In this document: positions 58,984-63,779 of the stretch, piece by piece | How the letters are laid out: each line of letters opens with the position of its first letter | Position numbering within the stretch: the first letter of the stretch is position 1 | Assembly: GCA_023416995.1 (NCBI GenBank) | Contig: JAEZGI010000044.1 | Span: 5,964 to 69,963, forward strand | Source: Bacteroidota bacterium | Lineage (GTDB): Bacteria > Bacteroidota > Bacteroidia > Chitinophagales > Chitinophagaceae | Direction: 5' to 3' | Length of the DNA stretch: 64,000 nt | The notes under the pieces: model-generated | Databases searched by the model: none | What the model was told of the DNA's origin: nothing | The model's input: the letters and a program-made list of their open reading frames with translations, nothing else | Position numbers and translations under genes: made by a program

Positions 58984-60429
58984 ATGACCAAAGCTGAACT
59001 GATAAAAAAATTTCTTGAGAACCGCTGCACGGCAGAGGAAGCGAAAATTGCCATGCAATATCTCGTAGAGGAACCGGATATTCTTGACGAAACATTATCC
59101 AGTACCGAATGGGATGAAATTGATCCTTCACTCATCATTCCGCCCGACATGGAACCGGCTATGCGGAGCGCCGTTTTTGCGAAAACCAGGCCCACGGTTA
59201 TTACAATGGCGAAAACAGCGTTAAGGGTAGCAGCGGTCGTTATGGGCATTGCGGTTGGATTACTCGCCTGGTATCAATCCACGAAACAGGCATCTGTGGC
59301 ATCGCAACTCGTCGAAACTGAAAACCTCCCGAAAACCACAACAGTCACCAATAATACAAATACCAACAAAGAGCTGCTGCTTCCCGATAACTCCGTGGTC
59401 AGTCTATACCCCGGCGCAACGCTCGAATACAATTTACCTTTCGTGGCCAGGGATATTCAATTAAAAGGGAAAGCGATTTTTACAGTCACCAAAAACACCA
59501 GTAGCCGTTTTGTAGTGTATTCAGGTACCGTTAGCACAACAGCTCTTGGAACACGTTTCCTGGTTGATCTCAGCGATGATGATAAGAAGGTGAACGTCAA
59601 ACTTTTTGAAGGCAAGGTAGTTGTACAACAAAACGAATCGACCTTGTCGTCGGCTAGAACCTATCTTGAAGCGGGTCAGCAGTGTTTTGTAGATGTTGAC
59701 AAGATGATCGTGAAAGTCGAGTCGCTGTTTTCGTCCCGACCAATCGCTAAGAAACAAGGCTCCCGTAACTCGCGGGCAAGTAATACGAGACCAGGTGAAC
59801 AAGTCGCCGGCCGTTTACAATTCGTAAAGACTCCTTTAGACGAGGTTTTGGCAAACCTGCAGGCTGTATACAATCAACCCATTCATTTTAATAAGGCAGA
59901 TATTGAAGGACGGCATTTCACCGGCTCGTTCACAAGTAATGATTCTTTGTCAGTGATACTTAAAATGATCTCGGTGATGAATGAGATGCAGGTAGCTGAC
60001 AACGATGGTGTCATCATGGTAACCAAAGCCGGACCAACATATCTGCAGTTGCCGGATGATGCGTCTTTCCCTGATCCTTCGTCTGCAAAAAAGCTCGCCC
60101 TCGCTGAAAACATGCAACTCGACGGGATCGCGCCACCATCACACGAAGTCAAGGCGAAGGAACCACTAACTGCGGTAACACCAATGATCGTCAGCGATGA
60201 AAATGTAACCATGTATACCCGTGTTCCATTAATTCATTTACTGGCGCGTTTACAAACACAGACAAAACGGAAAATTCTTTTCAACCAGGAAGAATTAGCA
60301 AAGATAAATTTCACCGGGGCTATCCCTTTTGATGATGGCGTTCGAAATATACTGGCAATGATATGCCGTATAAATGGTCTGACACTAACAGTTAAGAACC
60401 GATCATATATTATCAGTAAGAGTCAATAA
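58984..60429 (+). CDS. FecR-family anti-sigma factor with a duplicated C-terminal DUF4974/STN-like domain
   Basis: 481 aa. Anti-sigma N-terminus, TM (AKTALRVAAVVMGIAVGLLAWY), FecR domain (LPDNSVVSLYPGATLEY..KGKAIFTV..GTVSTTALGTRFLV). Then two similar ~70 aa modules, at 59815-60027 (LQFVKTPLDEVLANLQAVYNQPIHFNK..FTGSF) and 60205-60417 (MYTRVPLIHLLARLQTQTKRKILFNQ..FTGAI). Confidence 0.85.
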   Translation: MTKAELIKKFLENRCTAEEAKIAMQYLVEEPDILDETLSSTEWDEIDPSLIIPPDMEPAMRSAVFAKTRPTVITMAKTALRVAAVVMGIAVGLLAWYQSTKQASVASQLVETENLPKTTTVTNNTNTNKELLLPDNSVVSLYPGATLEYNLPFVARDIQLKGKAIFTVTKNTSSRFVVYSGTVSTTALGTRFLVDLSDDDKKVNVKLFEGKVVVQQNESTLSSARTYLEAGQQCFVDVDKMIVKVESLFSSRPIAKKQGSRNSRASNTRPGEQVAGRLQFVKTPLDEVLANLQAVYNQPIHFNKADIEGRHFTGSFTSNDSLSVILKMISVMNEMQVADNDGVIMVTKAGPTYLQLPDDASFPDPSSAKKLALAENMQLDGIAPPSHEVKAKEPLTAVTPMIVSDENVTMYTRVPLIHLLARLQTQTKRKILFNQEELAKINFTGAIPFDDGVRNILAMICRINGLTLTVKNRSYIISKSQ

Positions 60430-60469
60430 CATTTACAAAAGATTATTACCAGAACGCTCTGTTTCAAAA

Positions 60470-63500: not shown

Positions 63501-63779
63501 AATGCTAACAACGAACTAAGGGCCACCAATAATAAGTACCTGCAGGATCTCGCATATCTGAGATTGAAAAATGTGACACTGGGTTATACACTGCCTCAGA
63601 ATTTCACCAAACGGTTTAAGATTAATGCTTTCAGGATGTTCGCAAGCGCGGAGAATGTGTTCACCTGGACAAAGCTGAAAACCGATTACATCGATCCGGA
63701 ACAGGCCATGGCAGATGCAAATGGACGTGTGTATCCATTCAGCAAAACATTCTCCTTTGGCTTCGATGTAACCTTCTAA
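60519..63779 (+). CDS. SusC/RagA-family TonB-linked transporter lacking an STN domain despite the adjacent ECF/FecR pair
   Basis: The ATG at 60519 ([22 protein letters not shown]) is preferred over the TTG at 60483. The signal peptide is followed directly by CarboxypepD_reg ([32 protein letters not shown]) and plug ([54 protein letters not shown]). C-terminal GFDVTF. Confidence 0.9.
   Translation: [1086 protein letters not shown]

What the first reader, a model, noticed from the sequence alone, without database searches (positions are those of the whole stretch)
58984..63779. STN-like signalling domain apparently relocated: FecR has two C-terminal copies and its SusC has none
In the canonical trans-envelope design, seen at 15942-20622 in this same window, FecR carries one C-terminal DUF4974/STN-like domain. 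There the SusC-type transducer carries an N-terminal STN domain between its signal peptide and the CarboxypepD_reg domain. In the second system FecR is about 75 aa longer and has two tandem modules, at 59815-60027 and 60205-60417. Both fit the pattern PL..(V/L)LA.LQ......I.FN.....(H/N)FTG........(I/V)L.MI, joined by a Pro/Ala/Ser-rich linker. The adjacent SusC goes straight from signal peptide to CarboxypepD_reg and plug, with no STN. This suggests either domain transfer from transducer to anti-sigma, or a different way of coupling transport to sigma release.
Basis: seen in the sequence. Interest (0 to 1): 0.6.

Follow-up and report, generated by a model that had tools for sequence, protein, structure and literature searches.

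The report
Anti-sigma factor with duplicated signalling domain
A membrane regulator (FecR-type anti-sigma factor) next to a nutrient-import channel carries two copies of its outer signalling domain, while the channel lacks the matching domain. Comparison with about 180 related loci shows an old internal duplication inside a lineage whose channels already lacked that domain, not a domain moved from channel to regulator.

Summary
FecR (58984-60429) has two FecR_C (PF16344) modules, residues 277-348 and 401-479, joined by a disordered linker. SusC (60519-63779) runs signal peptide, CarboxypepD_reg, TonB box, Plug, with no STN in any frame and no room for one.

The "relocated STN" reading does not hold:
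- Module 2 is a diverged copy of module 1 (hhalign E 1.8e-21). It is no closer to transporter STN domains than any other FecR_C group.
- The same architecture occurs in 17 other Chitinophagaceae species and about 40 clusters at 50% identity.
- All 18 double-module FecRs have STN-less SusCs, but so do 53 of 55 single-module relatives. Loss of STN is therefore wider than the duplication and probably older.
- Three orthologous loci have only one module, apparently after losing one, and their SusCs still lack STN.

What stands out is the wider pattern. FecRs paired with STN-less SusCs sit apart in the tree from canonical ones, where 38 of 38 sampled loci and at least 47 of 61 in two genome censuses carry STN. 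How these systems couple transport to sigma release is unknown.

Neither the double-module FecR nor the STN-less lineage turned up in the papers I searched or in earlier notes of this scan. I file it as a new variant of a known kind, of moderate interest.

The parts
58333..58875 (+). ECF sigma factor gene. This is the longest ORF, from a TTG; the true start may be a few codons downstream.
   Evidence: Sigma70_r4_2 63.6 bits, Sigma70_ECF 26.5 bits. TIGR02985 Sig70_bacteroi1 108.7 bits, below its 126.4-bit cut-off. An orthologous sigma lies upstream of FecR in the related loci.
58984..60429 (+). FecR-type anti-sigma factor, 481 aa, with two FecR_C modules
   Evidence: PF04773 50.3 bits and PF16344 in two stretches. 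About 20 full-length homologues at 30-52% identity.
58984..59283 (+). Cytoplasmic helical N-terminal region (residues 1-68, presumed sigma-binding) and a single transmembrane helix (residues 72-100)
   Evidence: AlphaFold2 secondary structure. The N-terminal motifs are conserved across the family. Sigma binding is inferred, not tested.
59332..59724 (+). Periplasmic FecR beta-sandwich domain (residues 117-247)
   Evidence: PF04773. pLDDT is 86-93 over most of it. The full model matches the anti-sigma factor BDI_1681 (4m0h/4m0n, best E 1.1e-17) and the PupR periplasmic signalling domain (6ovk_R, E 2.2e-12).
59812..60027 (+). FecR_C module 1 (residues 277-348)
   Evidence: PF16344 50.7 bits. The module 1 copies form one group in the module tree, apart from L003's copy and with L040's single module inside.
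60028..60183 (+). Disordered Pro/Ala-rich linker (residues 349-400)
   Evidence: pLDDT 29-36. No Pfam match. 8 Pro and 8 Ala in 52 residues; the spacing between module cores ranges from 23 to 78 aa across the 18 double-module genes.
60184..60420 (+). FecR_C module 2 (residues 401-479), an STN-like fold
   Evidence: PF16344 27.9 bits. The module-2-only model has pLDDT 86.9. Foldseek gives PupR 6ovk_R TM 0.76, BDI_1681 4m0n TM 0.74, and the STN domains of FpvA, FoxA, FecA and PupA at TM 0.6-0.72. The module 2 copies form one clade.
60519..63779 (+). SusC/RagA-type TonB-dependent transporter without STN. The ORF is open from the TTG at 60483; the likely start is the ATG at 60519.
   Evidence: TIGR04056 807.6 bits, with the match starting at residue 39, just after the predicted signal peptide. 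TIGR04057 signature 57.8 bits. No STN.
60519..60893 (+). SusC N-terminus: signal peptide (60519-60584), CarboxypepD_reg N-terminal extension domain (60597-60881), TonB box EDVVVVGYG (60867-60893)
   Evidence: Pfam. Coordinates. The TonB-box assignment is by analogy with DEVVVTG of BT1763 (PMC7782687).
60906..61232 (+). SusC Plug domain
   Evidence: PF07715 60.9 bits.
63801..64000 (+). Start of the SusD-like lipoprotein gene, which runs off the window. The genome contig ends 432 bases past the window end.
   Evidence: 73% identity to the N-terminus of the SusD of the orthologous locus L082. Contig end.
15942..20622 (+). Canonical comparison locus in the same window: FecR with one FecR_C (15942-17165) and SusC with STN at residues 80-129 (17263-20622). 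An ECF sigma lies at 15281-15871 and a SusD at 20647-22095.

Best explanation
The locus is an ECF sigma / FecR anti-sigma / SusC-SusD operon of the cell-surface-signalling type. It belongs to a distinct FecR lineage whose partner SusCs have no STN signalling domain. Within that lineage, one ancestral tandem duplication of the STN-like FecR_C domain produced a subfamily, mostly in Chitinophagaceae, built as: anti-sigma domain, transmembrane helix, FecR beta-sandwich, module 1, flexible linker, module 2. Both modules have been kept under constraint. Module 2 is therefore a FecR_C paralogue, not the transporter's STN moved to a new host. Loss of STN is wider than the duplication and probably came first.

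Inferred mechanism. The sigma factor is held by the cytoplasmic N-terminus of FecR and is released when the periplasmic part is disturbed, and it then drives its own susC operon. Because the SusC has no STN, the terminal FecR_C domain would have to receive the signal another way, most plausibly by touching the SusC periplasmic face (N-terminal extension domain, TonB box or plug) or the TonB complex directly. In the double form, module 2 sits on a 23-78 aa tether and is the likelier distal contact, while module 1 keeps the ancestral role next to the beta-sandwich.

I put about 0.85 on the evolutionary and architectural part and about 0.35 on the specific role for module 2.
For: Shown:
- Two PF16344 modules and no STN.
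- Module 1 against module 2: BLASTP E 7e-10, hhalign E 1.8e-21.
- Module 2 has the STN-like fold of PupR and BDI_1681.
- hhalign ranks module 2 with FecR_C groups at E 1e-23 to 1e-28. It scores E 2e-7 against STN, which is no closer than the other FecR_C groups.
- In the module tree, module 2 copies form one clade. Module 1 copies form one group, apart from L003's copy and with L040's single module inside. The two groups have mirrored internal branching.
- 17 further species carry the double form. About 40 clusters at 50% identity cover both modules.
- Mean column identity is 54% for module 1 and 51% for module 2, against a linker variable in length and sequence.
- SusCs next to doubles: 0 of 18 have STN. 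Next to single-module relatives: 1 of 55 by Pfam, 2 of 55 by my own STN model.
- The distance from FecR stop to Plug is 415-490 nt in the doubles against about 700-1500 nt in STN-bearing loci.
- In the FecR tree the STN-less-partnered proteins sit on one side and the STN-partnered ones on the other (2 changes over 116 rows). The doubles form one clade.
- Background in the same bacterial family: 38 of 38 sampled loci carry STN. In two genomes censused in full, at least 47 of 61 FecR genes carry STN and only one is clearly STN-less.
- The operon sigma, FecR, SusC, SusD, a phosphoesterase of the endonuclease/exonuclease/phosphatase (EEP) family, and an unknown 545-aa protein is conserved.

From the literature: the SusC N-terminal domain binds the anti-sigma C-terminal domain in Bacteroides (PMC2709373). 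TonB pulling through FecA dislodges the FecR C-terminal domain (PMC12036975).
Against: - No experiment or prediction here shows any contact between FecR and SusC.
- Three orthologous loci have a single module. L040 keeps a truncated remnant of module 2, and L019's module looks like a hybrid of modules 1 and 2. So module 2 is dispensable in some lineages.
- The trees are quick-search trees on short alignments with SH-aLRT support only. Support for the double clade is 75 and for the module 2 clade 81.
- One STN-partnered FecR (own genome, C62) falls with two poorly filled STN-less rows.
- The family sample was drawn from the highest-scoring FecR_C matches, which favours canonical FecRs.
- The order "STN loss first, duplication second" rests on parsimony over an unrooted tree.
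Confidence: 0.7

Rival explanations
1. Domain relocation in the literal sense: the STN domain of the SusC was transferred to the C-terminus of FecR.
For: The two features co-occur in 18 of 18 loci. Module 2 has the fold shared by STN and FecR_C. In a small 4-sequence comparison, the module 2 profile matched STN better than module 1 did (E 3.8e-6 against 0.0027).
Against: - With larger profiles the difference disappears. Against STN, module 1 gives E 1e-6, module 2 gives 2e-7, STN-less singles give 2e-9 and STN-partnered singles give 6e-8.
- Module 2 matches FecR_C groups 16 to 21 orders of magnitude better than it matches STN.
- Module 2 shares the FTG motif of FecR_C and nests among FecR_C modules in the tree.
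- Pfam assigns it to FecR_C, not STN.
- 53 of 55 single-module relatives already lack STN.
Confidence: 0.03
2. Functional compensation. After the lineage lost the SusC STN, the extra FecR_C copy was fixed because it takes over the STN's job. It could be a tethered docking module for SusC or TonB, or an in-cis partner of module 1 that mimics the FecR_C:STN pair.
For: - Doubles are found only inside the STN-less lineage.
- No doubles were found among about 100 canonical FecR genes examined.
- Module 2 is conserved and sits on a long flexible tether.
- There are precedents for the STN module being placed elsewhere, for example the barrel-less VreA of Pseudomonas (PMC2729926, seen only as title and abstract; the barrel-less detail is from my own knowledge).
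Against: - There is one origin, so the association counts as one event.
- Most STN-less systems manage with a single module.
- Three apparent losses of one module occurred in orthologous operons whose SusCs remain STN-less.
Confidence: 0.15
3. The system does not signal through SusC at all. FecR senses a periplasmic cue, such as a transported product or envelope state, with its FecR and FecR_C domains. The gene order only reflects that the sigma factor drives the susCD operon. Module 2 adds or tunes a binding site.
For: - The STN domain, the only established receiver-side element, is absent.
- No stand-alone STN protein is encoded within 6 kb in any related locus.
- The operon encodes a phosphoesterase-type enzyme and an unknown protein rather than glycoside hydrolases.
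Against: - The order sigma, FecR, SusC with a gap of tens of bases is as strictly conserved as in canonical transducer loci.
- The FecR_C fold is known only as a protein-protein module in solved relatives.
- No ligand-binding domain was detected.
Confidence: 0.12
4. Artefact: a mis-assembly or frameshift fused a SusC N-terminal STN to FecR, or the SusC start is mis-called.
For: None beyond the unusual architecture.
Against: - The SusC signal peptide lies after module 2, and the SusC frame is closed by a stop inside FecR.
- The same architecture is present in 17 other species and in many metagenome contigs.
Confidence: 0.01

Closest known systems
Bacteroides thetaiotaomicron ECF-sigma / anti-sigma / SusC trans-envelope signalling switches (Martens et al. 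2009, PMC2709373). The locus at 15281-22095 of this window has the same layout.
   Same: - Gene order: sigma, FecR-type anti-sigma, SusC, SusD.
- Anti-sigma built from an N-terminal cytoplasmic domain, one transmembrane helix, the FecR domain and FecR_C.
- SusC with the CarboxypepD_reg N-terminal extension, a TonB box and a Plug.
   Different: - The SusC here has no N-terminal STN transducing domain, which is the element shown to bind the anti-sigma C-terminus.
- The anti-sigma here has two FecR_C domains instead of one.
- Gray et al. 2021 (PMC7782687) state that SusCs of ECF/anti-sigma-controlled loci contain STN. This lineage is an exception.
Proteobacterial cell-surface signalling: FecA/FecR/FecI and PupB/PupR (structure 6OVK), FoxA, FpvA
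   Same: - Module 2, and by homology module 1, has the STN-like fold of the PupR C-terminal subdomain (TM 0.76) and of the receptor STN domains.
- The overall logic of a sigma factor held by a single-pass regulator.
   Different: - In those systems the regulator has one STN-like subdomain, and the receptor provides a second STN domain that it binds.
- Here both STN-like domains are on the regulator and none is on the receptor.
- The FecR autoproteolysis and Tat-export steps (PMC12036975) were not examined here.
Crystal structures of Bacteroidota anti-sigma periplasmic domains (BDI_1681, 4M0N/4M0H)
   Same: Best structural match of the full model (best E 1.1e-17, 22% identity): beta-sandwich plus one STN-like domain.
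   Different: The solved protein has a single STN-like domain. There is no equivalent of the linker and module 2.
Relocated STN modules such as VreA of the Pseudomonas aeruginosa PUMA3 system (PMC2729926)
   Same: They show that the STN signalling module can be separated from a transporter barrel.
   Different: VreA carries a true receptor-type STN on a separate periplasmic protein. Here the extra module is a FecR_C paralogue fused in cis to the regulator, and no stand-alone STN protein is encoded nearby.

Membership tests
FecR-type anti-sigma factor (PF04773 + PF16344) | FecR periplasmic domain PF04773 above the gathering score | tested here: met
   50.3 bits against a 24-bit cut-off, residues 121-212.
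FecR-type anti-sigma factor (PF04773 + PF16344) | C-terminal FecR_C / DUF4974 domain (PF16344) | tested here: met
   Two copies, at 50.7 and 27.9 bits, against a 24.4-bit cut-off.
FecR-type anti-sigma factor (PF04773 + PF16344) | Single-pass membrane topology with a cytoplasmic N-terminal sigma-binding domain, encoded next to an ECF sigma factor | tested here: inconclusive
   One long helix at residues 72-100 and a helical N-terminus in the AlphaFold2 model. An ECF sigma gene lies 108 nt upstream. Sigma binding itself was not tested.
SusC/RagA TonB-dependent transporter | TIGR04056 and the TIGR04057 signature, a Plug domain, a CarboxypepD_reg N-terminal extension, an adjacent SusD gene | tested here: met
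   807.6 bits against a 368-bit cut-off; 57.8 bits against 46.2. Plug and CarboxypepD_reg. SusD start at 63801.
TonB-dependent transducer (cell-surface-signalling receptor) | N-terminal STN signalling domain (PF07660) ahead of the TonB box | tested here: not met
   - No PF07660 hit at E up to 10.
- No hit with my own STN model in any frame with filters off; the positive control scored 100.6 bits.
- The TIGR04056 match begins at residue 39, just after the predicted signal peptide.
Canonical Bacteroides trans-envelope signalling switch | Physical contact between the SusC N-terminal transducing domain and the anti-sigma C-terminal domain | not testable with these tools
   The transducing domain is absent. 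Whether any other FecR-SusC contact exists needs binding experiments.
STN domain (PF07660), as the identity of module 2 | Sequence match to STN better than to FecR_C | tested here: not met
   Pfam assigns module 2 to FecR_C only. hhalign gives E 2e-7 against STN, compared with 2e-23 to 3e-28 against FecR_C groups. Only the fold is shared.

The most novel reading that the evidence does not exclude
A whole lineage of Bacteroidota sigma/anti-sigma/SusC systems signals without any STN domain on the transporter, the anti-sigma's STN-like domain docking directly on the SusC periplasmic face or on TonB. In the double-module branch the second, tethered FecR_C has become an in-cis surrogate of the missing transducer domain. 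That would be a second architecture for TonB-dependent trans-envelope signalling.
Probability: 0.15. Interest if true: 0.7.

Novelty: new variant of a known kind. Interest (0 to 1): 0.45.

Why it matters

This lineage spans Chitinophagales, Sphingobacteriales and Cytophagales. It keeps the sigma/FecR/SusC gene trio but has no STN on the transporter, and one branch doubles the regulator's STN-like domain.

Either these systems use a contact that has not been described, or they have uncoupled regulation from transport. Both outcomes can be tested directly, because natural one-module and two-module orthologues of the same operon exist.

The result also bears on annotation. "FecR next to SusC" should not be read automatically as a transducer pair.

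The duplication by itself is an ordinary event.

Tried and rejected
- **Complex prediction.** I ran complex prediction with the SusC N-terminus (residues 34-252) against FecR residues 265-481. It returned no verdict (score 0.10, mark 0.32). I do not use it as evidence either way.
- **PDB sequence search with the module 2 profile.** It returned only plant LRR receptor kinases, with no stretch passing on its own. These are chance matches to the NFTGxIP motif and I rejected them.
- **First small STN comparison.** With a 4-sequence STN profile, module 2 looked more STN-like than module 1. Larger profiles removed the difference.
- **Iterated STN model.** Iterating over all ORFs drifted into FecR_C, going from 9 to 113 hits. 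I discarded that model and rebuilt it on transporter ORFs only.
- **Family-wide FecR_C search.** The genome search over 61 genomes lists only the best 150 matches, so it could not serve as a census. I replaced it with a fetched sample and a full census of two genomes.
- **SusC tree.** A tree on the N-terminal extension plus Plug, with 156 rows, was too poorly resolved to say whether the STN-less SusCs derive from STN-bearing ones or from ordinary SusCs. It needed 27 label changes across the four groups.
- **Downstream genes in this genome.** The contig ends 432 bases past the window end, so they could not be read here.
- **Domain packing.** The full-length model aligns to the solved structures at 12-13 Å rmsd, so it does not show how module 1 packs against the beta-sandwich.
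- **Literature.** Three searches found no description of double-FecR_C anti-sigma factors or of STN-less ECF-linked SusCs. That does not prove none exists.
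Full report
**1. What is in the window**

Three co-oriented genes lie at 58333-63779, followed by the start of a fourth.
- An ECF sigma factor at 58333-58875 (Sigma70_r4_2 and Sigma70_ECF).
- A 481-aa FecR-type anti-sigma factor at 58984-60429.
- A SusC/RagA transporter. Its ORF runs 60483-63779 and the likely ATG is at 60519 (TIGR04056 807.6 bits).
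- A SusD-like lipoprotein starting at 63801. It is 73% identical to the SusD of an orthologous locus.

The assembly contig ends 432 bases past the window end, so the rest of the operon cannot be read in this genome.

**2. Check of the observation**

Pfam finds the FecR domain (PF04773, residues 121-212) and two stretches of FecR_C (PF16344) in the anti-sigma factor. Scanned on their own, module 1 (residues 278-344) scores 50.7 bits. Module 2 (about 414-477) scores 27.9 bits, above the 24.4-bit cut-off. The segment between them matches nothing.

The modules align without gaps at 27% identity, E 7e-10. Profiles built from 19 family members match at E 1.8e-21.

AlphaFold2 on the family alignment gives this layout:
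- a helical N-terminus (1-68);
- one long helix (72-100);
- a beta-sandwich (117-247);
- a disordered stretch (250-275);
- module 1 (277-348);
- a second disordered stretch (351-401);
- module 2 (401-479), with the same order of strands and helices as module 1.

A model of module 2 alone (pLDDT 86.9) matches these structures best:
- the PupR C-terminal signalling domain (6ovk_R, TM 0.76);
- the Parabacteroides anti-sigma BDI_1681 (4m0n, TM 0.74);
- the STN domains of FpvA, FoxA, FecA and PupA (TM 0.6-0.72);
- secretin N0 domains.

The SusC has a signal peptide, CarboxypepD_reg (39-117), the TonB box EDVVVVGYG (129-137) and Plug (142-250), and no STN. Its reading frame is closed by a stop inside the end of the FecR gene. 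A filter-free scan of all three frames between FecR and the Plug finds nothing. The same scan scores 100.6 bits at the canonical locus.

That canonical locus, at 15942-20622, has one FecR_C and an STN at SusC residues 80-129.

**3. Where module 2 came from**

A protein search found about 20 full-length homologues of 475-525 aa (30-52% identity) that carry both modules, plus shorter one-module relatives.

A scan of one genome per prokaryote species returned 80 related loci. Seventeen of them have the double architecture. They come from Niastella, Chitinophaga, Niabella, Pseudoflavitalea and Longitalea, plus unclassified Chitinophagaceae and Bacteroidota MAGs. An exhaustive profile search of 1.84 billion cluster representatives found about 40 clusters covering both modules.

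In a tree of 100 FecR_C modules, the module 2 copies form one clade (support 81). The module 1 copies form one group, apart from L003's copy and with L040's single module inside. The two groups show the same two sub-branches, which is the pattern expected from one old tandem duplication followed by co-divergence.

With profiles of 6 to 57 sequences, hhalign gives the following:

| Comparison | E-value |
|---|---|
| module 2 vs single modules of STN-less relatives | 3e-28 |
| module 2 vs module 1 | 2e-23 |
| module 2 vs SusC STN | 2e-7 |
| module 1 vs SusC STN | 1e-6 |
| STN-less singles vs SusC STN | 2e-9 |
| STN-partnered singles vs SusC STN | 6e-8 |

An earlier hint from a 4-sequence STN profile that module 2 was more STN-like did not survive this test. 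Module 2 is a FecR_C paralogue, not a transferred STN.

**4. Does the double form go with STN-less SusC?**

Yes in counts, no as an explanation.

None of the 18 SusCs next to double FecRs has STN. All 18 have a Plug and 16 have CarboxypepD_reg; the other two have interrupted N-terminal frames.

Among 55 SusCs next to single-module relatives, only one has STN by Pfam. My own model finds it in two of the 55, L076 and L079, and in L078 outside that set. These three loci belong to the most distant relatives.

The distance from FecR stop to Plug is 415-490 nt for the doubles and mostly 430-640 nt for the STN-less singles. That leaves no room for an 80-aa domain. No stand-alone STN protein is encoded within 6 kb of any of these loci.

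Three loci with a single module are orthologues of the double-module operon by FecR tree, SusC tree and gene content:
- L040 keeps a truncated remnant of module 2.
- L019's module looks like module 1 in its first third and module 2 in its last third, as if produced by recombination between the repeats.
- L025 nests among the doubles.

All three still have STN-less SusCs.

**5. The background**

In this genome, 5 of 7 FecR genes are followed by an STN-bearing SusC. The exceptions are this locus and C6:63842-64966.

Of 40 FecR loci taken from 36 other genomes of the same bacterial family, 38 could be evaluated and all 38 had STN, at 699-1499 nt from the FecR stop. That sample came from the highest-scoring FecR_C matches, so it favours canonical FecRs.

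I therefore censused two genomes in full. Of 61 FecR genes:
- at least 47 have STN downstream;
- one (L156) is clearly STN-less with the short spacing;
- two lack a detectable STN at longer spacing;
- eleven could not be evaluated;
- none is double.

In a tree of 116 FecR proteins cut after the first module, the STN-less-partnered proteins fall on one side and the STN-partnered ones on the other (2 changes). The only exception is one STN-partnered protein that joins two poorly filled rows. The doubles form one clade inside the STN-less side.

That lineage includes members from Pedobacter, Spirosoma and Hymenobacter as well as Chitinophagaceae. The duplication is a later event in one of its branches.

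**6. How it most likely works**

Shown: the architecture, the homology of both modules, their conservation against a variable linker, and the conserved operon. That operon is sigma, FecR, SusC, SusD, a phosphoesterase of the endonuclease/exonuclease/phosphatase (EEP) family, and an unknown 545-aa protein.

Inferred from the canonical systems: the sigma factor is held by the FecR N-terminus and released after the periplasmic part is disturbed. In Bacteroides the SusC N-terminal domain binds the anti-sigma C-terminal domain (PMC2709373). In E. coli, TonB acting through FecA dislodges the FecR C-terminal domain (PMC12036975).

With no STN on the SusC, the STN-like domain must be engaged some other way or not at all. 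My preferred reading (about 0.35) is direct contact with the SusC periplasmic face or TonB. Module 2, on its 23-78 aa tether, would be the distal contact, and module 1 would keep the ancestral position.

Alternatives are SusC-independent sensing and a merely modulatory module 2. The three losses favour the modulatory view.

One complex prediction gave no verdict and is not used as evidence.

**7. Comparison with what is known**

The closest systems are:
- the Bacteroides ECF/anti-sigma/SusC switches;
- the proteobacterial Fec, Pup, Fox and Fpv systems;
- the solved anti-sigma periplasmic domains, which each have one STN-like domain.

Gray et al. state that SusCs of ECF/anti-sigma-controlled loci contain STN (PMC7782687). 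This lineage does not.

The SusC fails the defining test of a TonB-dependent transducer. It should be filed as a SusC transporter next to a FecR-type anti-sigma, not as a transducer.

I found no description of double FecR_C proteins or of the STN-less lineage in the papers searched or in earlier notes of this scan.

**8. Verdict**

- Observation: confirmed.
- "Relocated STN": not supported.
- Classification: a new variant of a known kind, of moderate interest.

The main value is that natural one-module and two-module orthologues, together with a whole STN-less lineage, make the question of STN-independent signalling testable.

Noticed in passing
L082:16636-19156; also L001, L004-L008 and L040 downstream of SusD: The double-module operon carries no glycoside hydrolase. 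After SusD come a phosphoesterase of the endonuclease/exonuclease/phosphatase (EEP) family (PF03372, 65 bits) and a 545-aa protein with no family match. This suggests a non-glycan, possibly phosphoester or nucleic-acid, substrate.
   Followed up: partly
L040:5818-7101 (Gynurincola endophyticus): This orthologous FecR has module 1 followed by a 70-aa tail that ends in the first half of module 2 (...FILFNDYA, then a stop). The SusC frame opens 23 nt later. This is a partial deletion of module 2.
   Followed up: partly
L019:5926-7032, and the single-module proteins P0119, P0121 and P0142: Some one-module relatives carry a module resembling module 2, or a hybrid of modules 1 and 2. L019 has the module 2 hallmark ICxxNxL in its last third. 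This suggests module loss by recombination between the repeats.
   Followed up: partly
Own genome, G000:C6:63842-64966 and the SusC frame from 65208: A second STN-less FecR/SusC pair in the same genome, with a single FecR_C module. It groups with the STN-less lineage.
   Followed up: partly
window 17263-20622, and 38 sampled loci (L083-L122): In the window's STN-bearing SusC, STN (residues 80-129) lies N-terminal to the CarboxypepD_reg domain (148-229). In the 38 sampled SusCs the STN also lies near the N-terminus of the frame. Gray et al. 2021 (PMC7782687) write that the CarboxypepD_reg extension precedes the STN.
   Followed up: no
L023:2688-5096 and L027:2606-4921 (Ferruginibacter): An ORF of about 800 aa, roughly 1 kb upstream of the sigma/FecR pair, carries a FecR_C-like match. 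I did not examine it further.
   Followed up: no
window 60184-60420 (module 2): The conserved module 2 motif INFTGxIP mimics the plant LRR consensus. It draws spurious PDB sequence hits to receptor kinases such as FLS2 and TDR.
   Followed up: yes
L136, L139, L153, L154 (genomes G020, G009): Four FecR genes are followed by an ORF with an STN-like N-terminus but no match to my SusC-trained Plug model. These may be non-SusC or barrel-less STN partners.
   Followed up: no
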